This document shows, one piece after another, positions 4,823 to 37,076 of a stretch of 64,000 nt of DNA; the stretch's first letter is position 1, and every line of letters starts with the position of its first letter. Both the position numbers and the translations under genes were made by a program. Source of the stretch: an uncultured bacterium (GTDB lineage Bacteria > Armatimonadota > UBA5829); NCBI GenBank assembly GCA_963775535.1, contig CAVZJH010000053.1:19116-83115 (forward strand), written 5' to 3'. Under the pieces are notes generated by a model. That model was not told the origin of the DNA. It searched no databases and saw nothing but the letters and a program-made list of their open reading frames with translations.

Positions 4823-4998
4823 AATCGGTGTTACCACCCCGCCCCTCCTTCGTCGTGCCACTCAGGAGACGAACGGGGCTAAACCAATCCCAACCACTAA
4901 GCCAATGACCGCAGCGGCGGCCAATGCAAAAAACAGCTCCAAACGGCCTCGCCGTCCGGAGCTGTTTACTTATTTCGTTTACTGGTCGGCGTATACGC

Positions 4999-6345
4999 CT
5001 ACTTTTTTGCTTTAGCCGTCTTCTGCAGCTTGTCCAGTACACTCTGGGGAAGAAGCCCCATTTTTACTTTCAGCACTTCCACACCCTTCGCGAGCTGCAC
5101 GTCGGTTTTAGGGTCGTTGGGGTCGAAGTTGTCTGCGGCCTGGACGTATACATCGGGAGCAATGCCCTTTTTGTGTATGTCGATGCCGTTCGGAGTGAGA
5201 TACTTTGCCGTGGTGATCGCAACCGCCGACCCGTCTTCCATTGGCATAATGGTCTGAACTCGTCCCTTGCCGAATGTAGTTGTTCCAACCAGCGTTCCGG
5301 CCCCATCGTCTTTGATCGCGCCGGAGACTATCTCCGATGCGCTGGCGCTCCACTCGTCCACAAGCACCACCAGCGGGTAACGCTTGTGATTGTGCCTGTC
5401 TTCTTCCACATAGAGCGGGTCCTTCTGTCCACCGCGCTCCTGTATGATCACTACCGGGCCGCTCTCGATAAAGCGGCTTCCGATGTCTACAGCGATGTTC
5501 AGCAGCCCGCCCGGGTTGCCTCTGAGGTCGAATATCAGGCCCTTCATGTGTCCCTTGTCCAGATCGGTCAGGGCCTGGTTAAACTGGGTGTCGCTTTGCT
5601 CGTTGAACTGGTACAGCCGCACGTAGCCTATCTTGGCCTTGTCATCGAGCATTCTGGACTCGACCATTTCAAAGTTGACTATCTTGCGCGTGATCATAAT
5701 CGTGAGCAGTTTAGCCTGGGAAGGACGCCGAAGAGTCAGCTTGACCTTGGTGCCCTCTTTGCCTCGAATCAACTTCACGACGTCGTTTATGTCCATTCCC
5801 TTGATCTTCTTGCCGTCAACGGCAATTATCACGTCGTTGCTCTTGACACCTGCCCGAAACGCCGGTGATTTCTTGAGCGGCTCCTTGATATAAACCTCGT
5901 CGTTCTTGTTGGTATCGAGCCGGGCTCCTATGCCGGTGAAGTTGCCCTCGTTCTCTTCTCGCATCTTAGTGTAGTCGTCCGGGTCCATAAAGCGGGTGAA
6001 CGGGTCTCCAAGAGCGAGAAGCATACCCCGGATCGCATTATAGGTCAGATCTTGTTCATTGAGCTTCTTGACTCGCTGGTCCGGATTCTTGCAGTAGTAA
6101 TCTTCTTTCAGTTGCTCGATGACGGAAGAGTAAGTGCCGATGAGCGGCAGTATCCTGCTTTCGCTCTTGTCTTCCTGGGAATTACTGATGTTTTCCAGAC
6201 GCTGCGGAAGCAGTTGGAGGCTGGCTACCCAACTCTTCACGTTTCCGCCGCTTGCCCGGACATCCGGGGCGACGAATCCTACCACGAACGCCGCAAACAG
6301 CAGAAACAGTATGGGAATTATAGCTTCGATTCGTATTTTTCTCAT
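4999..6345 (-). CDS. ctpA: S41 family carboxyl-terminal processing protease with PDZ domain
   Basis: GIGA PDZ loop, DLRGNPGG, catalytic SASASE and TFGKG. Confidence 0.95.
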   Translation of the reverse strand: MRKIRIEAIIPILFLLFAAFVVGFVAPDVRASGGNVKSWVASLQLLPQRLENISNSQEDKSESRILPLIGTYSSVIEQLKEDYYCKNPDQRVKKLNEQDLTYNAIRGMLLALGDPFTRFMDPDDYTKMREENEGNFTGIGARLDTNKNDEVYIKEPLKKSPAFRAGVKSNDVIIAVDGKKIKGMDINDVVKLIRGKEGTKVKLTLRRPSQAKLLTIMITRKIVNFEMVESRMLDDKAKIGYVRLYQFNEQSDTQFNQALTDLDKGHMKGLIFDLRGNPGGLLNIAVDIGSRFIESGPVVIIQERGGQKDPLYVEEDRHNHKRYPLVVLVDEWSASASEIVSGAIKDDGAGTLVGTTTFGKGRVQTIMPMEDGSAVAITTAKYLTPNGIDIHKKGIAPDVYVQAADNFDPNDPKTDVQLAKGVEVLKVKMGLLPQSVLDKLQKTAKAKK

Positions 6346-6349
6346 TGGA

Positions 6350-7694
6350 TTAGCTCTTGCCTCCCTGAGTGCTCAACAGTCTGGTGGCGGCGCTCAACTG
6401 GGGGTCTCCCGTGGAAGCAGATGCCGCCTGCAGGTCTACTCGGAGCCCCTTGCCGCTGTAATCCTTTCCGCTGCTGGTCAGGAATGCGCCCGTTGTCATC
6501 ATAACCGCGGAACCATCATCCAGTTGGGTCAAGGTGGCGTATGAGGCGTCACCGTATGTCCTTTCGCCAACGAGTTTCGCTGAGCATTCTTCCTGGAGGG
6601 CCGAGGCCAGAAGCTCCGGCATGCGTGCGGTTCCGGCATTTACGAATACGGCCATCGGCTTTTGCCACGCGTCCTGGGTGGATGGAATCTTAATAACGGA
6701 CTTGCGCCCGTGGGATTGCAGTTCCGTGCCCAACGTTTTGCCGGGCGCGACATACTTTGCAACCTGCAGCACCTGGTCTACCTCGCCACCTGCAAGGTTG
6801 CGCATATCCAGGACAAGTCCATTCGCGCCTGCCGATGCCATGTCCTTCAGCGCCTTTGCGAACTCCTCCGCAGTGCCGGACGAGAAGCAGTTGATCCTGA
6901 CGTAGCCCAGCTTCGAGTCCGCATCGAACTGGCTGGTAACAGGCTTCACGGTAAACTCATGAGGAGTAACCTTGATCGTGAGCGGCCTCGCGGAGCCTTT
7001 GCGCGATATCGAGAGCTCAACTTCTTTTTTGTCATCGCTAATCAGCGTGTTCTCCGCGTCCAATATAGGGACGCCGGTCTTGATCCTTTGCTGCTCTACC
7101 TTGAGCTGCTTGCGGAGTTCGCCGGAATCCTTTGTCTTATCTTTGAGGAGAAGCATGGCGTTTCTCCGTAGGTCAAACGGAAGCACGGCCTTGCCATCGA
7201 TTGCAACGATGTCATCGCCTGCCTTCAGTCCCGCCTCGGCCGCCGGTCCGGACTGGACCGGTGTAATAACTATCAGGTGTTCCTGGGTCAGGGTTCCGCT
7301 TTTGATTCGGTTGACCCCAAGGATCGCCCCGATGCCGTGATACTTGCCCGCCAGAGCATCGACCACCAACTGCCGTTGCGCCGGCTCAAGAAAACGGGTA
7401 TTCGGGTCGTCAATCCCGGCAAGCATCGCCTTCATTGCATCGTAGGTCATGTCACCCTCTATTTTGGGTGTCAACTGCTCGACGTAATGCCTCTTCTAAG
7501 TCCTTGGCGATTTCGTACAAAGTTCCTATCGGCTTGAAATCAATGTTGCCTGCGCCTTCAAGCCCAACGGACGCAACTCGAGTTCCCTGCACGTACTCCG
7601 ATGTCCCGAGTTGGGCCCTGGCGAGGCGTTCCTCTCGATTTGCGACCTGCAGCCTCATCGCAAAGCCAGTTGCGAAGCACAGTCCCACAAGCAA
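6350..7694 (-). CDS. Second S41/PDZ protein, probably catalytically inactive; frameshift ~7480
   Basis: GIGA and DMRNLAGG are present, but SASASE is replaced by TARMPE and FGKG by YGDA. The N-terminus lies in ORF 7452-7694. Confidence 0.8.
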
Positions 7695-8256
7695 ACCGAT
7701 CCCGATCCTACGAATAGTTTAAATTTATTACCTCATAACAAAATAGCCGGGCTTTGCAGCCTCGGCGCAACCCTGCATCCCCATCAGCGGGCAATACCGT
7801 CGTCGTACTCGTTCCAAATAAGCCACGCTCATACAAAATTATACCACACCGCAGTTGGGTGTCAATTTGGCCCCTGCCGAATCGGGCGCCCGAGAGGATG
7901 TCAAATAATATGACGATCTTTTGGCGCGAAAGGTTCAGCCGTTCAGTAAGTCGTCGCGCAGTTACATACCTTCCCGGCCAAATAACGAAGCTCCCCGGGT
8001 ATCGTTGTACCCGGAGTCGGCAGAGGTCAAGCCACTTTTGGAATCAATCGCGTGCTTATTTCGTCGATGGGCTCGCCGGCTGATTGGGACCGGCGGGATC
8101 TATAAGAAAAGCTGGAACCCCAAAAGTCCTTCTGTGAACGCATTGAGAATGCAAATGCCCGCGATGGGTATAGGTTCTATGGCCGAACTTCGGCAGGTCC
8201 CTCTGCCGGCAGTCGAGTCAACGTTGCCTAGAGCGAATTACAATAGGAGGAACCTA

Positions 8257-9057
8257 ATGAGCAGGAGAATCCTTCGATGCTTTCTTCCAATGCTGATCCT
8301 GGCCCTGATTGCTGCGTTTCCGGCGGCGCCCGCCGTTAGGAGTAAGAGCCGTACCAGTGCTCCGGCGCCCGCAATCGACCCCAGGGCGGATCAGATGCTG
8401 CGCCAGATGAGCGATTACCTGAGAGGACTGAACATGCTGACGGTCCACGCGGACACCACGCTTCAGATGCTGACTCCCTCCGGGATGATACTTAACGCCG
8501 ACCGGGAACTGGATGTTTACGTGCAGCGCCCGGACCATCTCCGGGTCAATTCTTATGTTCCCGACCACGACCGGCAGATTTTCTATGACGGCCAGAGCAT
8601 AACCATCTTCTCACCGGTGCAGAACTTCTACGCCGTCTTGCCCGCGCCGCCGACCATCCAGCAAACCATCGATGCCGCCAGAAAGCGTGGCGTCGACCTG
8701 CCGCTTGGCGATCTCCTGTATGACAACCCATACAATTCCGTCATTAAGCGCGCCCTGCACGGCTATTACATCGGGCTTAGCCTGGTTAGTGGAGTTAAAT
8801 GCCATCAACTGGCGTTTCGGGGCAAGGATATGGATTGGCAGATATGGATCGAGGACAGTGCCACTCCCCTGCCAAGAAGGGTTGTCATAACCGACAGGCT
8901 GGTGAAGCCGTGGCTGAGCTATATGGCTACGCTGACGAAGTGGGACGTCTCTCCGACGTTTGGTCCGGACACGTTCACGTTCGTTCCACCGCCCGGGGCC
9001 ACTAAGATTCCGTTTGAACCTGCTATGGTCCCGGGGGTTCAGAAGAAGCACAAGTAA
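8257..9057 (+). CDS. Periplasmic DUF2092-like (LolA-fold) protein
   Basis: RBS aggagg, signal peptide, V.RPDHLRV, YDG..ITIF, CHQLAFR, DWQIWI, PLPRRVVIT. Confidence 0.8.
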   Translation: MSRRILRCFLPMLILALIAAFPAAPAVRSKSRTSAPAPAIDPRADQMLRQMSDYLRGLNMLTVHADTTLQMLTPSGMILNADRELDVYVQRPDHLRVNSYVPDHDRQIFYDGQSITIFSPVQNFYAVLPAPPTIQQTIDAARKRGVDLPLGDLLYDNPYNSVIKRALHGYYIGLSLVSGVKCHQLAFRGKDMDWQIWIEDSATPLPRRVVITDRLVKPWLSYMATLTKWDVSPTFGPDTFTFVPPPGATKIPFEPAMVPGVQKKHK

Positions 9058-9077
9058 ACTGGGAGGACACACACGAC

Positions 9078-9797
9078 ATGCATAGAGTATGCTTTACATA
9101 TATTCGTAGATCGTCCGTCCTGGCATTGGCGGCAGCCGTTGTCATGGCATTTGCGATTGTGCCCGCACTCGCAAGAGGCGGCGGAGGCGGAGGCTTCCGA
9201 GGCGGTGGAGGTGGTGGCGGCTTCCGAGGCGGCGGCGGAGGGTCCCGCGCTGGTGGTTTTGGCGGCGGAAGCACGTCAAGGCCTTCTTCCGGAACGCGCC
9301 CGAGTGGCGGATACCAGTCCGGCCAGCGACCATCCCAGGGAAGCTATCAGCAGCATCCACAAGGAACAAACCAGGGAAGCTATCAGCATCCCCAGGGGAC
9401 CTACGGTCAGGGGCCATACGCGGGGAACAGACCAGCCCAGGGAGCTTACCCTGGAAACCATCCTAACTACCCTAACGGATATGCCCCCCGGACGAATATC
9501 AACACCGGTAACATAAACACCGGCACGGTTAATGTCTCGGGAAGCGATTGGGGATGGGGTGACGGCGGCGCGTGGGGCGCTGCGGCTGTAGGCGCGGCAA
9601 CCGGCGCCGCGGTTGGCGCTGCAGTGAGCGGAGGCGGTTCTTCCTACGCGTCAGCGCCGCCAGTGGTATATTCCCTGCCGCCAAGCTGCACGCCGGTGGT
9701 TGTGAATGGTCAAACCTATCAAAACTGCGGAGGGACCTACTATCAGCCCACCTATCAGGGTTCGACGGTGGCTTACCAGTCAGTTCCGGGACCGTAG
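9078..9797 (+). CDS. Gly/Gln-rich secreted or membrane protein
   Basis: Signal peptide, GGGGFRGG repeats, C-terminal LPPSC..VVVNGQTYQNCGGTYYQP. Confidence 0.75.
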   Translation: MHRVCFTYIRRSSVLALAAAVVMAFAIVPALARGGGGGGFRGGGGGGGFRGGGGGSRAGGFGGGSTSRPSSGTRPSGGYQSGQRPSQGSYQQHPQGTNQGSYQHPQGTYGQGPYAGNRPAQGAYPGNHPNYPNGYAPRTNINTGNINTGTVNVSGSDWGWGDGGAWGAAAVGAATGAAVGAAVSGGGSSYASAPPVVYSLPPSCTPVVVNGQTYQNCGGTYYQPTYQGSTVAYQSVPGP

Positions 9798-9966
9798 TTT
9801 ATGCGTTCGATGGTCGGAGGCTGAAATGCCTCCGACCTAAATCAATCGGGCCTGCGGTGTCCGCCTTGTGTTCGGGCAGATTTGCAATCTAGCCCGTAAA
9901 GGCAATCTGGGGATTTGTAATCCCCTATTGTAGCTTGGGCTGGACGCAGCCGAAGCAATTAAGCAA

Positions 9967-10179
9967 TCATTTTCCCCTGACTTCTTCAATGTAATCATCC
10001 ACGCTGCCCGCTACCCGCAGATGGGCTATGCCGCGCGCCTTCGATATTTGGCCGGCTCGCCTTACGAGGCGAATGCCGGCCCCGTCGTCAATGAAGTCTA
10101 CCTCGGTGCCTTTGATCAGGCCGTACGTGTCGCGCAGGTTTTTGGGAACGGTAACTTGGCCGCGTTTGTTGATCTTCAT
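9967..10179 (-). CDS. AbrB/MazE/SpoVT family DNA-binding protein
   Basis: MKINKRGQVTVPKNLRDTYGL..GTEVDF. Confidence 0.9.
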   Translation of the reverse strand: MKINKRGQVTVPKNLRDTYGLIKGTEVDFIDDGAGIRLVRRAGQISKARGIAHLRVAGSVDDYIEEVRGK

Positions 10180-10416
10180 AAGGAATGCCTCCGATGCCTG
10201 CCGCTGTCAATATACCGCGAGTAGAGGCCGCGAAACATGACGTCGAGAGTTTGGGTTTGGTTTTCGGTGGCATCGGGCTGCACGCCACAACAAGTGCATG
10301 CGCAGAAAATAAGGGGCGTGTATTTGTATGATTTCTTGATTTCCGCCTATGTTGTTGCAAAGGCAATATGTCCTCTTAACTGCAAAGGGAAAATGTCCTC
10401 TTAGTGTATCGTAACG

Positions 10417-10734
10417 TTACGTTATTCCGGCTTTTGTCGGGCGAGTTTGGAGTGGAATATCCTCCAAGCTCGCCAGAGCATCGTGCGCTGATTCGAGCAT
10501 CTCTAATAGAGACTCTCCCACCTGCGATTCCTGCCAAGTGTCCGTGCGCTGGTCGAAATAATCCTGCATTTCGGTGGTGGCACCCTCCAGCAGAGCCGAT
10601 GCCGCCTTAATCATGGCTTTCCACCTGCGCAGTCCCGGCACTGATGGGATTGACCCGAATGTCGCCTGAGCGCATCTACCACGATAAGCGGCTTGCCGCT
10701 CGCCATTGGTTTGATACTTCCTCCTCCTTGGCAT
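10417..10734 (-). CDS. Small passenger protein inside the IS
   Basis: RBS aaggag just after the transposase stop; MPRRRKYQTNGERQAAYRGR. Confidence 0.65.
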   Translation of the reverse strand: MPRRRKYQTNGERQAAYRGRCAQATFGSIPSVPGLRRWKAMIKAASALLEGATTEMQDYFDQRTDTWQESQVGESLLEMLESAHDALASLEDIPLQTRPTKAGIT

Positions 10735-10746
10735 GAGCCGCTCCTT

Positions 10747-12055
10747 TCACGCGATGCGCGTTGCTCCTATTTGTCTTCCTGGTCCGGACCTTCTCATGGA
10801 GCTACCTTCGATAGCACTCGCCGATTTGGATGCCATATACACCCACTGGCTTTCCATAACAGCGCGGACCCCTTTTCTCCTTCTCCTTGCCCGGATCGGT
10901 TCCGCGATCTCATTGGCAGGTGCTGTGGCTATCAGCCTTTCCTCGTAGTAGACCCGCCAACTGCCATCTAGGAGTTGCCGCAGTTCGGCTTTTAGGCCGG
11001 CATAGCTTCTCTTGCCGGGTCCAGGTGGAATGTCTATGACGATCCCGTCGAAGCGTATCGCGTTATCGTTGCCCACGCGGGCCCCATACTCAAGGGAAAG
11101 AACGCGCTCCAGATCAAGTCCACGCCTGGGCTTTCTCCAAGCGCTCTGCGTATCCTGCGGTGCCACCGTAAACTTCTCGTTGAACTCCCGCACGAATATC
11201 TCGGCGTATGCGTTTGCTCCAGCAATATCTGTGATACCTTCCAAGCTCAACATCGCGCACAATCTGTCCTGGAGCGTCTTGGAGAGCCTTTCCACTCGAC
11301 CTTTTGCCTGTGGCGTTCCTCGGAAGATAGCCTCGATACTCAGAGATTCCAGCGCCGAGCCGACCTGTGTCGGGTCCTGGCGCCCAGCCAGTTCCTCTTC
11401 GATACTCCAGAAGTCGTCGTTGCGCTTGAGTGATGAGTGACGATCCTGGTAGACGCTCGCCGGAATGCCGTGGCTTGTCACGACACGACGCAGCAGTTCA
11501 AGATATGCCCACGAGCACTCCGCTTCCGTAAAGAACAGCCCCAAAACCTTGCCCGTGGCGTCATCCATGGCAGCCATCGCGCAGCACGCTTCCATACCAG
11601 GGCCAAACCACCGGTGGGGGCTGCCATCCCAGAGCATCATCAGTCCCTCGCTCACTTTCCTTGGCCTTCTCTTGTGATGCTTCCTCGGTCTGCGCTTCAT
11701 CTTAGGCTTAATCCCATCCCCGCGACGAATCCCACGAACCGTCTCCCGTGAAAGAGATATCCCCTCACGCTCCACGAGCATTTCGTGGAAATGACTGTCG
11801 TTGAACAGGCTATAGCGTTCTTCGAGAGGGCCAACACTTTCGAGCGCACTTCATCGCTGATCTTATTCCCGGACTACGGCCCCGGTTGCCGTGCAGCAGA
11901 CCCGCGACGCCATCGCCCTCAACCGACTTTCTAAGCCGCCTGGCCTGACGGTAGCTCACTCCCATCTTCTCTGCCGCCTCACTCAGAGCCACACGACCCT
12001 CCAATACCATCCGCAGCAAGTGATGCCGCGCTACATCTCGCTCACTAATCTCCAT
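10747..12055 (-). CDS. DDE transposase with N-terminal HTH, frameshifted ~11790-11860
   Basis: HGNRGR; WDGSPHRW; MDDATG; YQDRHS; PQAKGRVERL..TLQDRL. Confidence 0.92.
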
Positions 12056-12475: not shown

Positions 12476-13861
12476 ATGACGGACGACCCTCCATGGTACA
12501 AACGCCGCCGATACAAGCACTTTGATAGGCCGATATCTGCCGGACGTGCCAGCGCATTGGTGTTAGATCCTGACAGCGTCAAACGTCATGGGTCATGCCA
12601 TTTCTCAGTGCCACTCTGGTTACACCACGTTACAGATCATCTCAGCACAAGAATAAGTCTAAGGTGAGGGATATAGCGTATGCTTCCCACCTCGACGCAA
12701 ATGTGTTCTCGTATTACAGTATGCTTCTTTCCATCTCATATGAGCGGGAGTTGGCTCGCCGTTCCATAGGTGATGTGGTACTGGCCTACCGAAAGCTTCC
12801 AGGAGGTAAATGCAATATTGATTTCGCAAAGGATACTTTCGAAGACATCATGCGAATAGGCGAGTGTAGTGTCCTTGTAAGTGATGTCGCCGATTTCTTC
12901 GGAAGTATCGATCACTCCCTCCTCAAGCATGCCTGGTCCAGGTTGTTGGGCAGGAATGAACTTCCTTCTGACCATTTCGCTGTTTTCAAAGCTGTCACGA
13001 AGTTTGCTCATGTGGATCAAGACACCGTGTATCGCCTTTTCAAGATCGGAAAGAGGCGTTCCAAGCAATATTGGGAACCTATCTGTACGGCAGCTGCCTT
13101 TCGTGAGGCGAAACGATCCCCCGAGTTCATACAAGTTAACGGGTCAGGTCGCGGCATTCCGCAGGGGTCGCCAATCAGTGCTCTCCTAGCAAATGTATAC
13201 ATGCTTGATGTCGATACGAGTATGGCTGAGCGGTGCGCAGAGATTGGAGGAGTCTACCGGAGATACAGCGACGAGTATTGCTACTGGTATGTCCAAACAA
13301 AACCCGTGCGGAACTTGAGGAGCTTCTTCGGTCGCAACTGGCTCGGGTTAAACTGGATTTAGCAGCAGGCAAATCTAAAGAGTCATTTTTCTCTTTTGAT
13401 GCCGATGGGTCCCTGCGTACAGATAAGCCAGTCCAGGTACTTGGGTTTCTTGTTCGACGGTCAGCGCATCTTGATCCGCTCTTCAACCATAGCGAAATAC
13501 CACGGGAGGATGCGCCGGGCGATATGCTCCGCTAATGCTGCAGCCCGTCAGAGTTGCCTCTCTGGAGGTGATCCGCGGAGATTCTCCCGCAAAATAATCC
13601 GCCAGTTCAGCGGATTGGGCCGTGCTAGAAAATTACCCCGGTTACGCAAAACGCGCTGCCAAAATCATGGCTGCACCTTCGATCGGAAGACAACACCGCA
13701 AGCACTGGCGAATGCTCAGTAAACTGCTGGACCAACCGGTGTGCAAAAAAGCCTGCGCTTTGTGCAAAGACCCCGATTTCACCAGCCTTTTCAATGAGTT
13801 GGGACATGGCGCAGTAGATGCCCGACACAATTTGTGTCCGTCCTATCCCAGCAATAAGTGA
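12476..13861 (+). CDS. drt2: Defence-associated reverse transcriptase, DRT2/UG2 type, split by ~4 frameshifts; 3' end approximate
   Basis: WYKRRRYKHFD, RDIAYASHLD, AYRK...GKCNIDFAK, DVADFFGSIDH, LP.DHFAVFK, GIPQGSPISA, YRRYSD(D). Confidence 0.88.
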
Positions 13862-29808: not shown

Positions 29809-31668
29809 ATGAACCAACTTAAACCAGAAGGCAACCTCACGGGGATGCCGAACACACCGAATAACATGCTGCGGGTAGGGGTCTATGCCCGCAAGTCAAA
29901 CAGAACCGAAGGTCGAAGCAGGAGTATTGAAGAGCAGGTGGCATCCTGCCCACAGGTGGCCACATATTACGGCCTCGACTTTGACGGTGCCACCTTATAC
30001 AAAGAAGATGAGGGTCAGAAGGGGGAATGGTATTGGCGGGATAGCGAACGCCGCAATCCCAAACCCTGGAGGCCCGAGCTGACCAGGCTTATGGAGGATA
30101 TAGAGGCGGGCATAATCGATGTCGTTATGACGTGGCGCTCGGACAGACTCTACAGGGATGCTGGGGTATGCGACGCCCTTATGAAGGTCGTCAGGGCAAA
30201 AAATATCCGTTTCATCTGCGGGTTGAAAGATATGGATATCGACTCGGCGACAGGACTTTTTCAGGCAAGTGTCGAGGCCGCCAACAACAGGAAGTATCGA
30301 GATACCATTAGCGAAGATATAAGGCGCGATCACGACTTCAAAGCCCAGTTGGGCATGTTTTCCCGTAACCCAAGCTGTCTTGGCTACCGTTCCAAAGGAA
30401 AGGGCAGTCAGGCAGTTGAGGTTATATGGGAAGAGATGGAACTAGTCAACAGAATATTCAGGCTCTTTGTAGCCGGTGAAGGCGATATCGGGCCGATGGG
30501 AATAAACGGCATCGCCAGTCTACTCATGAATGAAGGGGTTCGGGTTGCTCGGGGTGCAAAGGGCCATATCCCAAAGCACCCAAACATGGTGCATACCTCG
30601 CAAATACGGACGATACTCACCAACTGCATGTATGTCGGCAGGTGGCGGCACAAGGGAGAACACGAATGCGACAGACTCCTTGTTCCCGTCTCAGACGGAA
30701 GCAGCCAGCTTGAGACGGCGGTGCCGGTCGCACTTTTCGAGGCGGCGCAAGAAAAACTGAAGCTTTCCGACAGGCCAGGAAAACGTTCTCTCAGCGACGA
30801 GCACCTGCTGACGGGCCTTGTAATCTGTGCCAGATGCGGACGACCGCTGCAGATTAGGTATAAGAGGTATAAAGAGACGGATAATGGCGGGGATCGGCCT
30901 GCGAGAAAGACTTTCATGTGCCCGCATTCGAGCCCTCCTGGCTATTGCAAGCCTTGGGGAATAAAGCTGGTTCAGGAGCCAGTTATGGACGACTGGGTGT
31001 TGACGCAACTCGCGCCCCTGCTTTCGGCGGAAATCGCAGAAATGCGTAGCGCCCCAGGGAGAGAAGCCGACGGCCAAGCCTTTGCCGACACACAAAGAAA
31101 ACTTCAAGAGGCAAAAATCAAGGAAACCGAGACGCTGACCAATCTTATCGGGGTCTTCGACAAGGAACAACTTGGCCGAGTGGCGGAGCAGCTTCGCGCC
31201 GAACGGGAACGACTTCAGCGAAAGGCCGATGAAATACAGTCAAGACTCAAGAAGCAGGATAACCTGGTAACCGAGCTTTGCTCGGATGATCTCGCAAGCC
31301 TGCCCAAGAGCACCATCAAAGACGCGCTCCGGCGCGTAATCAAGTGGATAGCGGTCGGAAGCGAAGGAATGGTCGTATTGACGAACTGGGGAACATACAT
31401 CGGTGCCACGTTCAATGAAATTGACAAGGGCGTCTACTTCACAAGAGATACCAGGAGAACCATCAACATTCCAACTCCAGGCTCTGCCCTTCGGTGCTTG
31501 AGTTGGCTGCCTTCACCCGAGGACTTCATGAAGGGCAGAAGAAGCAGCATGGGCCGTAGGAGCGATAGGCTAACTGATGAGGAAATCGTTCCTGGGCTTT
31601 CCGAGACAGGCGGCGAACCAGTCGCGGACGCCGAGCTATCAATAGAGGTTATCGAACTGAACGACTAG
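29809..31668 (+). CDS. Large serine recombinase 2 (intact)
   Basis: VYARKS, SIEEQ, DRLYRD, ILTNCMYVG, LLTGLVICARCGRPL, coiled coil. Confidence 0.92.
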   Translation: MNQLKPEGNLTGMPNTPNNMLRVGVYARKSNRTEGRSRSIEEQVASCPQVATYYGLDFDGATLYKEDEGQKGEWYWRDSERRNPKPWRPELTRLMEDIEAGIIDVVMTWRSDRLYRDAGVCDALMKVVRAKNIRFICGLKDMDIDSATGLFQASVEAANNRKYRDTISEDIRRDHDFKAQLGMFSRNPSCLGYRSKGKGSQAVEVIWEEMELVNRIFRLFVAGEGDIGPMGINGIASLLMNEGVRVARGAKGHIPKHPNMVHTSQIRTILTNCMYVGRWRHKGEHECDRLLVPVSDGSSQLETAVPVALFEAAQEKLKLSDRPGKRSLSDEHLLTGLVICARCGRPLQIRYKRYKETDNGGDRPARKTFMCPHSSPPGYCKPWGIKLVQEPVMDDWVLTQLAPLLSAEIAEMRSAPGREADGQAFADTQRKLQEAKIKETETLTNLIGVFDKEQLGRVAEQLRAERERLQRKADEIQSRLKKQDNLVTELCSDDLASLPKSTIKDALRRVIKWIAVGSEGMVVLTNWGTYIGATFNEIDKGVYFTRDTRRTINIPTPGSALRCLSWLPSPEDFMKGRRSSMGRRSDRLTDEEIVPGLSETGGEPVADAELSIEVIELND

Positions 31669-31995: not shown

Positions 31996-32318
31996 AGCTC
32001 TGACTGCACCAAATCGCCGGTAGGAAGCTGGTGTAAGTGGCTTCTCCAAACAGCCAGTAAATTTGATTATCAAAGTCACGCCCTCGGCAACGCCCTCATC
32101 TCCTGACTATACATTGGCTTAGCGAATCAGCCGAACAATTCTTACACAAACGCCAAAAGGCCCTTGCGTTCAAGCACATTGTGGGATATACTCCAGGTAT
32201 GCCCGAGTAATTCAAGGGATGCGGATTTGCAGTTCTTGAAATGCCCGGGCTTTATTCGGTAATGGGGATGAGGATGGGCTTAGATATGAGAAACGGTTTG
32301 TCTGGATCAGGCAGTAGT

Positions 32319-33765
32319 ATGAAGTTGGCTATCTTCATGGCAGTGTTGGGTTTACTGATCGCGGTTTCGGCTTGTGCCACAGCCGGTATGACGATCTCCG
32401 ACGCAAAGCAATCGTCTGACAATTCGTCTATCAGCCTGACGGGCAAGGTGGTCACCTATGCTTCTACAAACTTCTTTTACATCGAGGAAGACTCCAGAAC
32501 GACAGGCATCATGGTTCAGATGGCTGCTCACGGTCTGACGGTTGGTATGAGGGCTGATGTCTCCGGCACTATGAAGACCAACACGAGCAGAGAGAGATAC
32601 GTTCTTGCGACCAGTGCCGTGCAGACGGCTGCGCCTAATTCTACCGGAACGATTACACCTGTTGGTATGAACAACAATGCTATCGGTGGAAGTGATTGGA
32701 AGGTTATCGGAACCGGGGGTCAAAAAAGGAACAACCAGCTCTATCGGTCTGAACAACACCGGCTTGCTTGTCAAGACCTGGGGTGCGTTCCAGCAGATTA
32801 ATTCGACCACATTTACTGTGGATGATGGTTCAGGACCGGTGAACTGCACCGTTCCAACAGGCACCTTTCTCTACTCCGGGTGGCAGTATGTCAGCGTAAC
32901 CGGGATAAGCTCCACATTCAAGGTACAATAGCGCAGTTTACCTGCCTAACCTTCTGGTATGCGATATCAATGTGTTGTCCGGACTCGGCGAGATGATCTA
33001 CATCCCCGCAGGTTCTTTCCTGATGGGCAACTCAGGCGTTGGCGATGACGCAACGTATGGCAACTCAGACGAGTTCCCTCAGCACTCAGTGACTCTTTCT
33101 GGTTACTACATCGGCAAGTATGATGTGACGAGAGGGAGTATGCTCAGTTTATGAATGCCGGCGGTTATTCCATCCCAGTCTTACTGGTCAAGCGATGGAT
33201 GGAATTGGGTAGTGAGCAACAACGCCAAGCAGCCACAGTACTGGGCAGCGGTTCAGAACTCGGGGCACTCCTCCAGGCACATTCACCCAGACGGACAGCT
33301 ACCCCGTGGTGGGCGTGACCTACTATGAAGCCGAAGCCTTCTGCAACTGGGCTGGTGGCCATCTGCCTACAGAGGCTCAGTGGGAAATGGCTGCTCGTTG
33401 GACAGGGAGCCATCCAAATATATACCCGTGGGGCGACACGTGGGACGAGGAGAAATGCAACAATTGGGACGATACGCTGTTTCCGGGCTGGCAGACGAGT
33501 CCAGTGGGGAGCTACCGAGTGGCGCGAGTCCTTGTGGCCGCATGGTATGGCAGGTAACGTGTGGCAATGGGTGCAGGACTGGTATGTGTCTTATCCTGGA
33601 AGCACAAGCCCGTTTGACTATACAGGCAGCTCTCGTGTCCTGCGGGGCAGTAGTTGGGGCGACTACTTCAGCTTAATCGACGTCAACGACTCCCGATGCG
33701 CCTCCCGCGACTACGTTAACCCGGGCTTCATTTACCACGGCTTCGGGTTCCGTCTATCCCGCTAG
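32319..33765 (+). CDS. Secreted FGE-sulfatase (C-type lectin fold) protein, copy 1, with several frameshifts
   Basis: Signal peptide, [12 protein letters not shown] domain, [40 protein letters not shown]. Confidence 0.85.
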
Positions 33766-33916
33766 TCTTGCCCTTTTCTCTTTTACCCTTTTGCGCTTTA
33801 CAAAAGAGAAGAGGTTAAGGTAAAGAAGATGAGCATAGGGTCGAGTGAATGGGTTCCAAGGGCGTAGCCCTTGGTCGGTTCACATTCGGACCTTGTTTCG
33901 ATGGGGAGGTTTCAGT

Positions 33917-35668
33917 ATGAGAAAGTGCTTTGATATCGTGGTCTTGGGATTACTGCTCGCGATTGCGGCTTGTGCCGCAGCCGGTATGACGATCTCCGAC
34001 GCGAAGCAATCGGCTGACAATTCGTCTATCAGCCTGACAGGCAAGGTAATCACCTATGCTTCCACTGACTCTTTCTACATCGAGGAAGATAACAGGTCGA
34101 CGGGCATCATGGTTCAGATGACTGCCCACGGTCTGACAGTTGGTATGAGGGCTGATGTTTCCGGCACAGTGAAAACCAACACGAGCAGAGAGAGATACAT
34201 CCAGGCTTCCGGTGCGGTGCAGACGGCTGCGCCTAATTCTGCCGGCACAATTTCGCCCGTTGGTATGAACAATAATGCGCTCGGCGGAACTGACTGGCAG
34301 GTTGTAGGAGCCGGTGGTCAAAAAGGAACCAGCAACTCAATCGGTCTGAACAACATCGGCTTGCTTGTGAACACGTGGGGAGCCTACCAGCAGGTTAATG
34401 CGACGACGTTTACTGTGGATGATGGTGCCGGTCTGAATATACAATGCACGGTTCCCACGGGCACCTTTCTTTACTCTGGGTGGCAGTATGTTGCTGTAAC
34501 CGGCATAAGCTCGATATATAAGTTTAACAGTTCTATATACCCGCCTAACATTCTGGTTAGTGATATTGATGTAGTGTCGCCCGTAGAGGCAGTCTCTGTC
34601 CCCGGCACGCCCATCGGCAACACTGGTACTGCTGAAAATGTCAGCACTACATACTCCACCACCGGCGCGACAGACAATTGGGGACAGACGGTTGAGTACA
34701 GCTTCGATTGGGGAGACGGCACTTCGTCGCCGTGGTCCACCTCGACCAGCGCCTCACATGCGTGGAGCACGGCGGGGACCGTGGCAGTAATGGTCACGGC
34801 AAGGAGCCAAGCGCATCCAAACGTAGCGACGGTATCGACCGGGCTGCCGGTGAATGTGGTTAGTTCTCCATACCCTGGCACGATGATCTACATCCCCGCC
34901 GGTTCTTTCCTGATGGGCAATTCAGGCGTTGGCGATGACGCGACCCTTGGCTACTCAGACGAATTCCCTCAGCACTCTGTGACCCTTGCCGCCTACTACA
35001 TCGGCGAGTATGATGTGACCAGAGGCGAGTATGCTCAGTTCATAATTGCCGGTGGTTATTCCACCCAGTCTTACTGGTCAAGCGCAGGTTGGAGTTGGAA
35101 AGTAAGCAACAACGCCACGCAGCCTCAATATTGGGCAGCAGTGCAGAACTGGGGAACGGGGAACTTTACCCAGACTGATAGCTATCCGGTTGTGGGCGTC
35201 ACCTACTACGAGGCGGAGGCATTTTGCAACTGGGCCGGGGGCCATTTGCCGACCGAGGCTCAGTGGGAGATGGCTGCGCGTTGGACGGGCAGCCACCCGA
35301 ACATCTATCCCTGGGGAGACACTTGGGACCCGGAGAAGTGCAACAACTACTACGACCATAACGCGGCAGGGGGCGGCTATGAGGCAGAACAGATGAGTCC
35401 GGTAGGGAGTTATCCATCTGGTGCAAGTCCCTGTGGGTGTCAGGATATGGCTGGCAACGCGTGGCAATGGGTGCAGGACTGGTATGTGTCTTATCCTGGA
35501 AGCACAAGCCCGTTCGACTTTACAGGCAGCTATCGTGTCTTTCGGGGCGGTAGTTTTCTCAGCAACGGCAGCTATGCCACCGTCCGATGCGCCTGCCGCA
35601 GCGCCAGCGGCCTCGAAGCAGGACCGAGCGGCTATAGCGTCAACATCGGGTTCCGTCTGGCCCGCTAG
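33917..35668 (+). CDS. Secreted FGE-sulfatase (C-type lectin fold) protein with PKD domain, copy 2
   Basis: Paralog of copy 1 with an added PKD domain (YSFDWGDGT); [23 protein letters not shown]. Confidence 0.92.
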   Translation: MRKCFDIVVLGLLLAIAACAAAGMTISDAKQSADNSSISLTGKVITYASTDSFYIEEDNRSTGIMVQMTAHGLTVGMRADVSGTVKTNTSRERYIQASGAVQTAAPNSAGTISPVGMNNNALGGTDWQVVGAGGQKGTSNSIGLNNIGLLVNTWGAYQQVNATTFTVDDGAGLNIQCTVPTGTFLYSGWQYVAVTGISSIYKFNSSIYPPNILVSDIDVVSPVEAVSVPGTPIGNTGTAENVSTTYSTTGATDNWGQTVEYSFDWGDGTSSPWSTSTSASHAWSTAGTVAVMVTARSQAHPNVATVSTGLPVNVVSSPYPGTMIYIPAGSFLMGNSGVGDDATLGYSDEFPQHSVTLAAYYIGEYDVTRGEYAQFIIAGGYSTQSYWSSAGWSWKVSNNATQPQYWAAVQNWGTGNFTQTDSYPVVGVTYYEAEAFCNWAGGHLPTEAQWEMAARWTGSHPNIYPWGDTWDPEKCNNYYDHNAAGGGYEAEQMSPVGSYPSGASPCGCQDMAGNAWQWVQDWYVSYPGSTSPFDFTGSYRVFRGGSFLSNGSYATVRCACRSASGLEAGPSGYSVNIGFRLAR

Positions 35669-35968
35669 TCTTGCCCTTTTCTCGCTTGCTATGGAGATGT
35701 TTTCAGACGCTAACGGGCAGAGGAGCCGATGATAAGCAATCGAACGCATCCTCCACCTGTAAACCAGATGGAGGATGCCGTTATCGCATCAGCACTCGCT
35801 GAACTCTTCGCCGGTATTAAGGCACTTCCCTGTAATGTGACAAGAGTTGAGAGAACGTTGCACCGGCCAGGGCCTACGCATACGAATTTGTTATGTGACG
35901 ATGCATGCGCTAGTTGACGATTATTACGATTAGGCAGTATTGCATTGTGTGTCGAAGCAGTCAGTATA

Positions 35969-36934
35969 TCAGCAGGGGGTTCCCTCCACGCTTATGGTGC
36001 AGTCCTTCTCGACTTTGCGGTAAAGCCGCATCGACACGTCGCATGTTGTGGGCGGCAGCGGCATAAGAAACGGCTTTTCGGTGGCGAACATATCGCAGAC
36101 CTTTTCGCCGGTCGTGCCGTGGATGCGGTGGGACTTCTCCTCAAGAAACTCAAGCAGGTCCCGGTTAGCCGTCTCAATGTCCGTGAAGCTGTAGCCCCTC
36201 CAGAATCCCTCCCGGATGAAGTCCATAGGTCGCTCAACCTTCCCCTTCACCCACGGCGAGTATGCCGGAGCCACCTCGGGTGTAAAGCCGTAGTGGTCAG
36301 CAAGCGCCATCAAGGCTTGTGTGAACTGAGCCTTGCCCGCGAGTTTCCTGATGAAGACGTTCCGCATCCGGTCATAGAGGATCTCAGCCGGAACACCGCC
36401 GAAATGGGCAAAGCCGCGCTGGTGAGCATCGAGGAAGCTCGTCATGTCGCAGCGGGTGAGAAACTCACAATACGGAGTCCTCGAGAAGCCCAGTATCATG
36501 GCAAACTTGTAGAGGGTCCTCTCGACCCCATCCGGCTGGACTACCTTGAAATCCCCGAAGTCCACCTGAGCCTGTCTTCCAGGCTCTGTCTCGAAGCGAA
36601 GATACGCTATCCGGCTTCTCTCCTGCTTTATCCCTCTGACCAGGTCCTTCACTATCGTGTAGCTGCCGGTGTATCCCAGCTTCCTGATCTGGTCGAGTAT
36701 CCAGCTTGCATGATACTGACCATCATCCTCAAGCCAGCTCTCTATCACCGGCACAAACGGGTCCAGAATGCTCTCCCGCTCTACCTTTGCCCGGCCCTGC
36801 CCGATAAGCTCAGGGTTCTCCGCATAACGCTTGACGGTCCGCCGATCCCGTCCGCTCTTTCGGGCGATCTCTCGATACGAATGCCCCTGGCGGTGAAAAT
36901 AACTGATGTCCACTTTGTTCTCCCGTGATACCAT
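35969..36934 (-). pseudogene. istA: IS21 transposase, C-terminally truncated
   Basis: RFETEPGRQAQVDFG, GGVP.EILYD, KGKVER, HGTT; ends at 321 aa. Confidence 0.9.
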
Positions 36935-37076
36935 AATACTGACTCCCTGGTTGGTCTTCTCAACTTAACCATCGGAGTCAACGGGCGGAAGAGACATCTC
37001 CTCCGCCCAACACTAAATCACGGGTGGTACATTTTCACTCCGCCGTATTTGGATCATTTTACCGCCGCCGCCGACA
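35969..37076 (-). mobile_element. Truncated IS21-family element
   Basis: Terminal TGTCGGCGGCGGCGGTAAAATGATCCA with a second internal repeat at 37076-37023. istA is 3'-truncated; no istB or second end is seen. Confidence 0.88.

What the first reader, a model, noticed from the sequence alone, without database searches (positions are those of the whole stretch)
33634..35683. Two secreted FGE/C-lectin genes with DGR-type variable regions but no template or DGR RT nearby
Seen: the paralogs are nearly identical for ~70 nt before, and for a short tract after (gggttccgtct..cccgctagtcttgcccttttctc), a hypervariable 3' segment (33634-33765 and 35534-35668). Variable codons are mostly NNC (gac tac ttc agc..; ctc agc aac ggc agc..) between fixed islands cga-tgc-gcc and ccg, with whole-codon length differences. 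An imperfect hairpin follows copy 1. Known: DGRs mutate template adenines in AAC codons of CLec/FGE C-termini next to an IMH. Inference: remote DGR targets carried on a mobile island and diversified in trans, or relics of a DGR lost in the adjacent IS21 deletion.
Basis: partly seen in the sequence, partly recalled or inferred. Interest (0 to 1): 0.7.

Follow-up and report, generated by a model that had tools for sequence, protein, structure and literature searches.

The report
Orphaned DGR-written hypervariable lectin genes
Two neighbouring surface-protein genes of an uncultured Armatimonadota bacterium, one of them broken, have tips that were rewritten by a mutation-generating retroelement (DGR); that element's enzyme is missing and its only template is a broken fossil elsewhere in the assembly, so this is an ordinary, probably frozen, example of a known system.

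Summary
Copy 2 (33917-35668) is an intact BOF/PKD/FGE-sulfatase protein. Copy 1 (32318-33765) is a pseudogene with 9 frame-breaking indels. The copies are 79% identical overall. They are 70/73 identical just before the variable region and 34/36 in the tail GGGTTCCGT..TAGTCTTGCCCTTTTCTC.

The variable codons are NNC in 20/23 (copy 1) and 19/24 (copy 2). Against the AAC-rich templates of relatives, changes sit at template adenines (33/50 vs 9/82, and 35/52 vs 10/83). These are real DGR variable regions.

A template does exist in this genome, on another contig (C41:8598-8753). It is a fossil: 63 nt are deleted between AAC runs, it is only 87-89% identical to the window's flanks, and it has no RT or Avd beside it. 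No DGR RT, Avd or intact template was found in the assembly, which is 74% complete.

Relatives carry target-avd-RT-TR cassettes or target-TR modules. There, non-adenine mismatches are 0-1 of 77-78, and whole-codon indels occur in 5 of 7 pairs.

Best reading: orphaned, probably frozen DGR targets (0.6). Rival: still served in trans by an unassembled cassette (0.3). This is a new member of a known kind, and the scan has found similar cases on other DNA.

The parts
32318..33765 (+). Copy 1 (W1): pseudogene of a signal-peptide/BOF-like/FGE-sulfatase protein. It has 9 frame-breaking indels and a 291-nt loss of the PKD segment relative to copy 2.
33529..33633 (+). W1 5' flank homologous to the 5' part of the C41 template remnant (112/126 over the TR 5' extension, which runs on to 33657). 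The last 73 nt (33561-33633) are 70/73 identical to copy 2.
33634..33765 (+). W1 variable region (RVLRGSSW...RCASR...P...GFRLSR*). Variable blocks of 12-4-7 codons, 20/23 NNC.
33745..33780 (+). W1 IMH-like 3' tract GGGTTCCGTCTATCCCGCTAGTCTTGCCCTTTTCTC. It is shared with copy 2, with C41a, C41b and metagenome locus L101; a related CT-rich tract follows the VR in relative G003.
33767..33819 (+). Imperfect AT-rich hairpin after copy 1 (18-nt arms, 83% complementary). It is not better than shuffles and not conserved at copy 2.
33917..35668 (+). Copy 2 (W2): intact 583-aa protein. It has an N-terminal signal with a lipobox-like ...LAIAAC (read by eye), a weak BOF match, a weak PKD match, and FGE-sulfatase at residues 322-583.
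35430..35533 (+). W2 5' flank homologous to the 5' part of the C41 template remnant (109/126 over the TR 5' extension, which runs on to 35557).
35534..35668 (+). W2 variable region (RVFRGGSF...RCACR...P...GFRLAR*). Variable blocks of 9-8-7 codons, 19/24 NNC.
35648..35683 (+). W2 IMH-like 3' tract, 34/36 identical to that of copy 1.
35865..35981 (.). 117-nt repeat present at 98-99% identity in at least 7 other places of the genome. It abuts the truncated IS21 copy.
35977..37076 (-). Truncated IS21-family copy. It holds a 321-aa transposase ORF at 35969-36934 and no IstB. Only 1100 nt are shared with the other copies (100% to C47:1535-2634).
29809..31668 (+). Large serine recombinase upstream of copy 1 (context: a recombinase- and defence-rich region).

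Best explanation
Both genes belong to a family of FGE-sulfatase (C-type-lectin-fold) variable proteins of an Armatimonadota DGR lineage.

Their last ~130 nt were written by mutagenic retrohoming. An AAC-rich template RNA is copied by an error-prone reverse transcriptase that misreads adenines, and the cDNA replaces the gene's 3' end up to an IMH-like tract (GGGTTCCGT..TAGTCTTGCCCTTTTCTC). Whole-codon slippage in AAC runs accounts for the length differences.

Today the two genes are orphaned. They have no template downstream, whereas their closest relatives do. The only template in the assembly (C41:8598-8753) is a fossil with a 63-nt AAC-to-AAC deletion and ordinary point divergence. No DGR RT or Avd is present. 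Copy 1 is a pseudogene. The variable regions are therefore most likely frozen records of past diversification. Copy 2 probably still serves as a surface lipoprotein with a fixed binding tip.

Shown: the DGR signature, the fossil template, and the absence of RT and Avd from the assembled 74%. Inferred: that diversification has stopped, and the surface-binding role.
For: A-site bias against the 7-4-7 template of relatives:
- W1: 33/50 adenine sites changed vs 9/82 other sites (p = 6.5e-11).
- W2: 35/52 vs 10/83 (p = 6.3e-11).
- Using only blocks of equal length: 17/26 vs 8/70 and 10/18 vs 6/66.
- NNC codons: 20/23 and 19/24, against 175/539 elsewhere in W2.

Fold and relatives:
- FGE-sulfatase domain, E = 2.7e-53; it matches the T. 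denticola variable protein 2y3c at E = 3.9e-10.
- The closest full-length homologue (L101, 65% identity) is a target followed about 150 nt after its stop codon by a TR (about 170 nt to the TR's first AAC codon). That pair has 0/78 non-A mismatches and the same TAGTCTTGCCCTTTTCTC tail.

The template remnant in the same genome:
- C41:8598-8753 reads ...GGTAGTTGG AAC AAC AAC | GGGTTCCGGTTGGCTCGC AAG. It is followed by the lineage's conserved downstream RNA, 83% identical to that of G005.
- It lacks the 63 nt that the TR of G005 has between the AAC runs.
- Its 5' flank is nearest to W1 and W2 (0.89 and 0.87) and further from the other paralogs (0.62-0.80).

Signs that the system is dead in this assembly:
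- No DGR RT. RVT_1 hits are 6 group-II-like RTs, 1 retron-TIR RT, a truncated Drt2, and one weak unexamined hit on C55 (19.6 bits, below cut-off; 146-aa frame).
- tblastn with two relatives' DGR RTs finds only group-II-like RTs at 24-27% identity.
- No bAvd over the cut-off.
- One spacer copy only.
- No 120-nt window with 10 or more in-frame AAC codons. In that scan's own count the two TRs it found in related loci score 12 and 16.

Drift at scaffold positions:
- In 7 intact TR-VR pairs of relatives, non-A mismatches are 0-1 of 77-78.
- W1 and W2 differ from their own genome's TR at 2 and 3 of the 24 head positions, and at 5 and 3 of the 18 tail positions.
- They differ from each other at about 6 scaffold positions.
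Against: - The assembly is only 73.55% complete, in 119 contigs. An intact avd-RT-TR cassette could lie in the missing quarter.
- The cognate template was never found, so the A-site test rests on templates of other genera.
- Relatives show that each target can have its own TR. W1-W2 scaffold differences therefore need not mean drift.
- The tract next to the variable region is the best-preserved part of an otherwise wrecked copy 1 (0.97 vs 0.79). This could be a footprint of retrohoming that went on after the gene broke.
- No read-level data could be obtained.
Confidence: 0.6

Rival explanations
1. These are live remote targets. An avd-RT-TR cassette (or a mobile element carrying one) lies in the unassembled part of the genome and still rewrites copy 2, and even the pseudogene copy 1, in trans.
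For: - The genome is 73.55% complete.
- Remote targets acting at a distance are documented: passages of PMC5758913 and PMC7517822.
- Both copies keep the full IMH-like tract found at live targets of relatives.
- The TR-homologous tract is the most similar part of the two copies.
- Whole-codon length differences do not argue against a shared template. 5 of 7 intact pairs in relatives have 3n gaps, and PMC5758913 reports such indels next to AAC.
- G033 (98% complete) has a perfect TR-VR pair and no cognate RT was found. RTs of this lineage are therefore often missing from bins.
Against: - No RT, Avd or intact TR in 3.785 Mb.
- W1 and W2 differ from each other at about 6 non-adenine scaffold positions and from the only TR present at 5-8. 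Live pairs show 0-1.
- The conserved Trp codon TGG is TTT in copy 2, a change that adenine mutagenesis cannot make.
Confidence: 0.3
2. The TR of copy 2 once lay just downstream of it, as in its closest relatives, and was removed by the rearrangement that left the truncated IS21 copy and the 117-nt repeat at 35865-37076. This is a specific version of the relic reading.
For: - In 5 of 5 target-TR modules examined (L101, G035 three times, G033) the TR's AAC run begins about 170-190 nt after the target gene.
- The IS21 copy beside copy 2 is truncated and abuts another repeat.
Against: - The 180 nt between the IMH-like tract and the repeat (35684-35864) show no similarity to the linker, TR or spacer of relatives. 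The spacer search of the genome hit only C41.
- Relatives with cassette-type DGRs (G005, G003) have targets without a TR directly behind them.
- No deletion junction can be pointed to.
Confidence: 0.1
3. This is not a DGR product. It would be ordinary fast divergence of the loop region of FGE-sulfatase paralogs, with gene conversion between tandem copies explaining the identical flanks.
For: - The scaffold RVLRGGSW..RCAxR..P..GFRLAR is a general feature of the FGE-sulfatase family.
- High-identity windows also occur elsewhere in the pair.
Against: - The NNC excess and adenine-site confinement have p values below 1e-6.
- The IMH-like tail is identical to that of a live target next to its TR in L101.
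- A TR remnant in the same genome has a 5' flank nearest to these two genes.
Confidence: 0.03

Closest known systems
Treponema denticola DGR and its variable protein TvpA (PDB 2y3c), with seven remote targets
   Same: - An FGE-sulfatase-type C-type-lectin fold carries a C-terminal variable region.
- Several paralogous targets lie far from the RT (passages of PMC5758913).
- The W2 domain matches 2y3c at E = 3.9e-10.
   Different: - Here no RT, no Avd and no intact template are in the assembly.
- One copy is a pseudogene.
- The N-terminal part (BOF-like plus PKD) differs.
'Lineage 4'-related chromosomal DGRs of Wu et al. 2018 (PMC5758913)
   Same: - Remote targets and multiple targets.
- Indels in multiples of 3 next to AAC repeats.
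- Category 'b' FGE-sulfatase CLec1 targets (passages seen).
- Relatives of this genome show avd-RT-TR order and 3n indels in 5 of 7 TR-VR pairs.
   Different: - I did not place the relatives' RT on that paper's tree, so lineage membership is untested.
- Many relatives have target-TR modules with no RT nearby.
Cyanobacterial remote variable proteins and remnants (Vallota-Eastman et al. 2020, PMC7517822)
   Same: - Dispersed CLec paralogs, some with only 'remnant TR-VR homology' and no RT nearby.
- A degraded DGR cassette flanked by transposases (passages).
   Different: - A different phylum and different N-terminal domains.
- Here the remnant is the template, not the RT.
Earlier findings of this scan on other genomes (e1-4681255, e1-6670915, e1-4948987, e1-3131646)
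   Same: - FGE/CLec genes with DGR-type tails and no RT or template in the window.
- One note describes a TR/VR cassette without its own RT. Another describes one live and one fossil target.
   Different: These are AI notes on other DNA. I did not check them.

Membership tests
DGR target (variable protein with VR) | Variable region at the C-terminus of a C-type-lectin / FGE-sulfatase fold | tested here: met
   PF03781 at E = 2.7e-53 over residues 322-583 of copy 2. Matches to FGE and EgtB structures, and to TvpA 2y3c at E = 3.9e-10.
DGR target (variable protein with VR) | VR differs from the template only at template adenines | tested here: inconclusive
   Met against templates of other genera: 33/50 vs 9/82 and 35/52 vs 10/83. 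No cognate template is available. 8-10 non-adenine differences remain, whereas live pairs show 0-1 of 77-78.
DGR target (variable protein with VR) | IMH at the 3' end of the VR, with a non-identical IMH* at the end of the TR | tested here: met
   GGGTTCCGT..CGCTAGTCTTGCCCTTTTCTC in W1, W2, C41a, C41b and L101. The TRs have ..CGCAAGTCTGCC.. instead. The function of the tract is inferred from position and conservation only.
DGR target (variable protein with VR) | GC-rich inverted repeat downstream of the IMH | tested here: not met
   Copy 1 has only an AT-rich imperfect hairpin that is no better than shuffles. Copy 2 has none within 60 nt. This feature is described for the Bordetella phage DGR (passage of PMC5758913) and may not be universal.
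Complete DGR in this genome | Template repeat matching the VRs | tested here: not met
   The only TR (C41:8598-8753) has a 63-nt internal deletion and is 87-89% identical to the W1/W2 flanks. No other AAC-rich window or spacer copy was found.
Complete DGR in this genome | DGR-type reverse transcriptase | tested here: not met
   The RVT_1 search and tblastn with two relatives' DGR RTs found only group-II-like, retron and Drt2 RTs, plus one weak unexamined hit on C55. The assembly is 73.55% complete, so absence from the organism is not shown.
Complete DGR in this genome | Accessory protein Avd | tested here: not met
   The best PF22296 hit is 20.3 bits against a cut-off of 40. tblastn with two relatives' Avd found nothing below E = 0.4.
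Complete DGR in this genome | Ongoing diversification (variation among reads or strains at adenine-templated positions) | not testable with these tools
   One public run held 6% of the words, as contigs only. It covered 33321-33504 and nothing in the VRs. No near-identical orthologue was found in metagenome or genome collections; the best was 68-69%.
IS21 family insertion sequence (neighbour of copy 2) | IstA transposase plus IstB helper within terminal repeats | tested here: not met
   NF033546 scores 273.6 bits for the 321-aa ORF. Only 1100 nt are shared with the other copies and there is no IstB, so this copy is truncated.

The most novel reading that the evidence does not exclude
This Armatimonadota lineage may run a distributed DGR. 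Many dispersed targets each carry their own template and structured downstream RNA, without an RT beside them. A single avd-RT, possibly on a mobile or poorly binned element, would serve them all in trans. On this reading W1 and W2 are still rewritten, and the well-preserved TR-homologous tract inside the otherwise wrecked copy 1 is the footprint of retrohoming that continued after the gene died.
Probability: 0.25. Interest if true: 0.5.

Novelty: new member of a known kind. Interest (0 to 1): 0.3.

Why it matters
It adds little that is new in kind. Remote and orphaned FGE-type DGR targets are documented, and this scan has met them repeatedly.

Its value is as a worked example of how DGRs decay:
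- a template destroyed by slippage between its own AAC repeats;
- targets left behind with their written tips;
- in a relative, an RT gene cut off beside an IS110-family transposase gene.

It is also a pointer to an Armatimonadota DGR lineage with RT-less target-TR modules. I found no paper that pairs DGRs with Armatimonadota (0 papers).

Tried and rejected
- Exact-pattern scan of metagenome contigs with the W1/W2 flank: 0 hits.
- Public reads: one run with 6% of the sampled words, held as contigs only. The only near-identical piece covers 33321-33504, and nothing covers the variable regions, so read-level variation could not be examined.
- The RT on contig C81 was considered as the DGR RT and rejected. 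It is a retron/TIR-type RT with no TR-VR pair nearby.
- The weak RVT_1 hit inside the window (12595-13362) is a truncated Drt2.
- Rfam found no family in C41:7400-9100 at E <= 1.
- The hairpin after copy 1 was rejected as a significant structure.
- The AAC-window scan of the genome at a low threshold gave 173 windows with a maximum count of 9. By eye, in the part of the output shown (it was cut), none has the TR core. I did not inspect all of them.
- The protein search of metagenome and genome collections gave no orthologue above 69% identity, so no strain comparison of the variable regions was possible.
- My tblastn with the GxxExxY protein used a wrong frame and found nothing. The adjacency statements rest on blastn and the Pfam search.
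Full report
**What is in the window.** Copy 2 (W2) is an open frame of 583 codons at 33917-35668. It carries an FGE-sulfatase domain over residues 322-583 (E = 2.7e-53) and weak PKD and BOF matches. Its N-terminus, MRKCFDIVVLGLLLAIAAC.., reads as a lipoprotein signal; this is my reading of the sequence, not a tool result. Copy 1 (W1, about 32318-33765) aligns to W2 along its length but is broken. It has 9 frame-breaking indels and has lost 291 nt covering the PKD part. The two copies are 79% identical over 1489 ungapped columns. The highest 60-nt window (0.97) lies directly before the variable region, although windows of 0.92-0.95 also occur elsewhere.

**The variable regions.** Both end in the scaffold RV.RG.S(W/F) - block 1 - R C A x R - block 2 - P - block 3 - GFRL.R*. 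The blocks are 12-4-7 codons in W1 and 9-8-7 in W2. NNC codons make up 20/23 and 19/24 of the block codons, against 175/539 in the rest of W2. The tract GGGTTCCGTCT..CCCGCTAGTCTTGCCCTTTTCTC is 34/36 identical between the copies, and the similarity stops right after it. The hairpin after W1 exists but is AT-rich, no better than shuffles, and has no counterpart after W2.

**A template does exist in the genome, but it is a fossil.** A search of the window's own assembly (3.785 Mb, 119 contigs, 73.55% complete) with the W2 tail found related segments on contig C41. That locus reads in this order:
- an FGE gene at 6076-7593 with its own variable region (C41a);
- a ~115-nt repeat;
- a promoterless 3' gene fragment with a variable region (C41b, 7726-7936);
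- the repeat again;
- a GxxExxY/PDDEXK_3 gene;
- the repeat again;
- at 8598-8753, a stretch that begins like the 3' part of a target gene and runs into ...GGTAGTTGG AAC AAC AAC | GGGTTCCGGTTGGCTCGC AAG TCT GCC.

Relatives of the same family and class carry full templates of the form TGG (AAC)3 GAC (AAC)3 CGG TGC GCC TAC CGC (AAC)4 CCG AAC AAC TAT (AAC)4 GGG TTY CG.. The C41 copy lacks the 63 nt that the TR of G005 has between two AAC runs.

Downstream of the C41 remnant lies about 155 nt that are 83% identical to the sequence following the TR in G005. One search gave 82-88% to the matching stretches in G003, G005 and G036. This sequence folds into a conserved structure, with 12 of 45 predicted pairs keeping pairing through changes on both sides in 7 sequences. 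Those are few and related sequences, and one of them was mis-cut by me. Rfam has no match for it.

**No enzyme.** The RVT_1 search of the assembly gave 9 hits: six group-II-like RTs, one retron/TIR-type RT on C81, a truncated Drt2 in the window at 12595-13362, and one weak hit on C55 (19.6 bits, below cut-off) that I did not examine further. tblastn with the DGR RTs of G005 and G036 found only the group-II-like RTs at 24-27% identity. bAvd is not found over its cut-off, and relatives' Avd proteins find nothing. The spacer occurs once. No 120-nt window has 10 or more in-frame AAC codons; in that scan's own count the two TRs it found in related loci score 12 and 16.

**Are the window's variable regions DGR products?** I compared them with the 7-4-7 template of G036 and treated extra codons as AAC-templated.

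| Copy | Adenine sites changed | Other sites changed | p |
|---|---|---|---|
| W1 | 33/50 | 9/82 | 6.5e-11 |
| W2 | 35/52 | 10/83 | 6.3e-11 |

With equal-length blocks only, the counts are 17/26 vs 8/70 for W1 and 10/18 vs 6/66 for W2. The three C41 variable regions behave the same way.

The closest full-length homologue found anywhere is L101, at 65% identity, on a 6.9-kb metagenome contig. It is a target followed about 150 nt after its stop codon by a TR and the spacer. That pair has 0/78 non-adenine mismatches, one extra codon in the VR, and the same TAGTCTTGCCCTTTTCTC tail. I regard the DGR origin as established, at about 0.9.

**Length differences are not a problem.** Seven intact TR-VR pairs were examined (G005, G003, L101, G035 three times, G033). 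Non-adenine mismatches are 0-1 of 77-78, adenine mismatches are 19-27 of 34-37, and five pairs have gaps that are whole codons. Passages of Wu et al. 2018 (PMC5758913) report that about 7% of DGRs have TR and VR of different length. Their indels are mostly next to AAC and are ascribed to template slippage, and the 3n indels are concentrated in lineage-4-related DGRs, the same group that has remote targets. A 2026 paper (PMC12875486; passage and reference list seen) cites that model.

**Live or frozen?** Against live:
- The C41 template is truncated.
- It differs from W1 and W2 at 2 and 3 of the 24 head positions and at 5 and 3 of the 18 tail positions, and is only 0.89 and 0.87 identical over the 126-nt flank.
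- W1 and W2 differ from each other at about 6 scaffold positions.
- W2 has TTT where every template and every other variable region examined except C101 (TAT) has TGG.

For live:
- A quarter of the genome is missing.
- The TR-homologous tract is the best-kept part of the wrecked W1.
- Relatives show that each target can own a template, so W1-W2 differences need not be drift.
- G033, 98% complete, has a perfect pair and no cognate RT was found.

Reads could not decide the matter. I put frozen relics at 0.6 and trans-served targets at 0.3.

**How the C41 fossil may have formed (inference).** In target-TR modules the VR and the TR are direct repeats about 270-290 nt apart. Recombination between them would fuse a target's 5' flank to the TR, its IMH* and the spacer. 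That is the layout at C41:8598-8910. The 5' flank there is closest to W1 and W2. The AAC-to-AAC deletion would be a second event. I did not test this.

**Neighbourhood.** Downstream of W2 lie 180 nt of unique sequence, then a 117-nt repeat present at 7 or more other sites, then a truncated IS21-family copy. Upstream lie a large serine recombinase, DndB, a resolvase, restriction genes and the truncated Drt2. G+C is 0.52-0.56 over most of 12-40 kb (one 2-kb bin reaches 0.61), against 0.53-0.58 before and 0.55-0.61 after, and there is no tRNA gene. This suggests an island, but I defined no borders. The organism is an Armatimonadota bacterium, judging by the names of the nearest genome records.

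**Comparison with what is known.** Remote FGE-type DGR targets are described (T. denticola; passages of PMC5758913). So are remnants without an RT in cyanobacteria (passages of PMC7517822). Roux et al. 2021 note that their metagenome survey could not detect remote targets (passage of PMC8144416). Earlier notes of this scan describe several similar cases on other genomes. A search for 'diversity-generating retroelement' together with 'Armatimonadota' found 0 papers. Of the 3 papers that hold 'GxxExxY' (2 listed), the one I opened concerns a Cas4-like neighbour of a CRISPR RT, and the other listed one is an algal-virus genome paper by its title; neither is on DGRs. Supplementary tables of the DGR surveys were not opened and may list related elements.

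**Verdict.** This is a new member of a known kind, of modest interest.

Noticed in passing
L009 (G000:C41) 6076-9010: A decayed DGR locus. In order: an FGE target with a VR (6076-7593); an orphan 3' fragment with a VR (7726-7936); a GxxExxY gene (8072-8485); three copies of a ~115-nt repeat (7601-7725, 7955-8060, 8490-8600); a TR remnant with a 63-nt AAC-to-AAC deletion (8598-8753); and an intact-looking spacer RNA (8756-8910). There is no RT or Avd. The layout fits a VR x TR recombination product.
   Followed up: partly
L009 8735-8905; L033 5075-5245; L034 1249-1419; L031 5516-5686; L035 4351-4535: A conserved ~155-nt structured RNA lies directly after the TR in this DGR lineage. 12 of 45 predicted pairs have compensatory changes (7 related sequences), and there is no Rfam match. 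It is presumably the DGR RNA spacer that primes cDNA synthesis.
   Followed up: partly
L101 1435-3600; L035, L036, L037 (G035); L038 (G033): Target-TR-spacer modules with perfect TR-VR pairs (0/78 non-adenine mismatches) and no RT in the stretches fetched; avd was looked for in L101 only. The loci are 4-8 kb. No cognate RT was found in G033 at all (98% complete).
   Followed up: partly
L180 (G035:C1:2240000-2252000) 4748-11945: A cassette of three FGE targets, bAvd and an RT whose similarity to the G005 RT ends after about 80 residues (the open frame is 172 aa). It is followed by an IS110-family transposase gene and a GxxExxY gene. This is a second example of DGR decay in the clade.
   Followed up: partly
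G000:C41:8114-8449; G026:C173:2122-2457; G028:C448:7366-7701; G035:C1:2244765-2245100: In each of four genomes, one of the 2-5 GxxExxY/PDDEXK_3 genes lies within about 0.3-2 kb of a DGR target or cassette (4 of 12 copies). I found no paper linking this family to DGRs.
   Followed up: partly
G000:C101:~6500-6633(-), C77:11273-11395, C89:6098-6217: Three more FGE paralogs have VR-like ends. C101 and C89 appear frameshifted. None has the CT-rich IMH-like tail. They are older fossils or targets of another lineage.
   Followed up: partly
window 33763-33800; L101 3174-3210; L031 ~2290-2340: A CT-rich motif (TAGTCTTGCCCTTTTCTCTTTTAC(C/T)CTTTT..) follows the VR stop codon in W1 and L101, and related CT-rich tracts follow it in G003 and G035. 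In this lineage it may replace the GC-rich hairpin as the target-site signal.
   Followed up: no
window 12595-13362: Truncated Drt2-type antiviral reverse transcriptase. It is 255 aa and matches positions 36-263 of the 416-position NF041746 profile.
   Followed up: no
L017 (G000:C81) 780-2322: A retron RT of the Ec67/TIR type (383 aa) followed by a separate 151-aa ORF that matches the TIR part of NF042941. It is either split or frameshifted.
   Followed up: no
window 35865-35981: A 117-nt repeat present at 98-99% identity in at least 7 other contigs. It is probably the end of another mobile element.
   Followed up: no
G000:C81:2898-3073: A ~150-nt repeat dispersed over dozens of contigs at 80-98% identity. 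It is probably the structured leader repeat that this scan already noted for this genome (e1-4986420).
   Followed up: no
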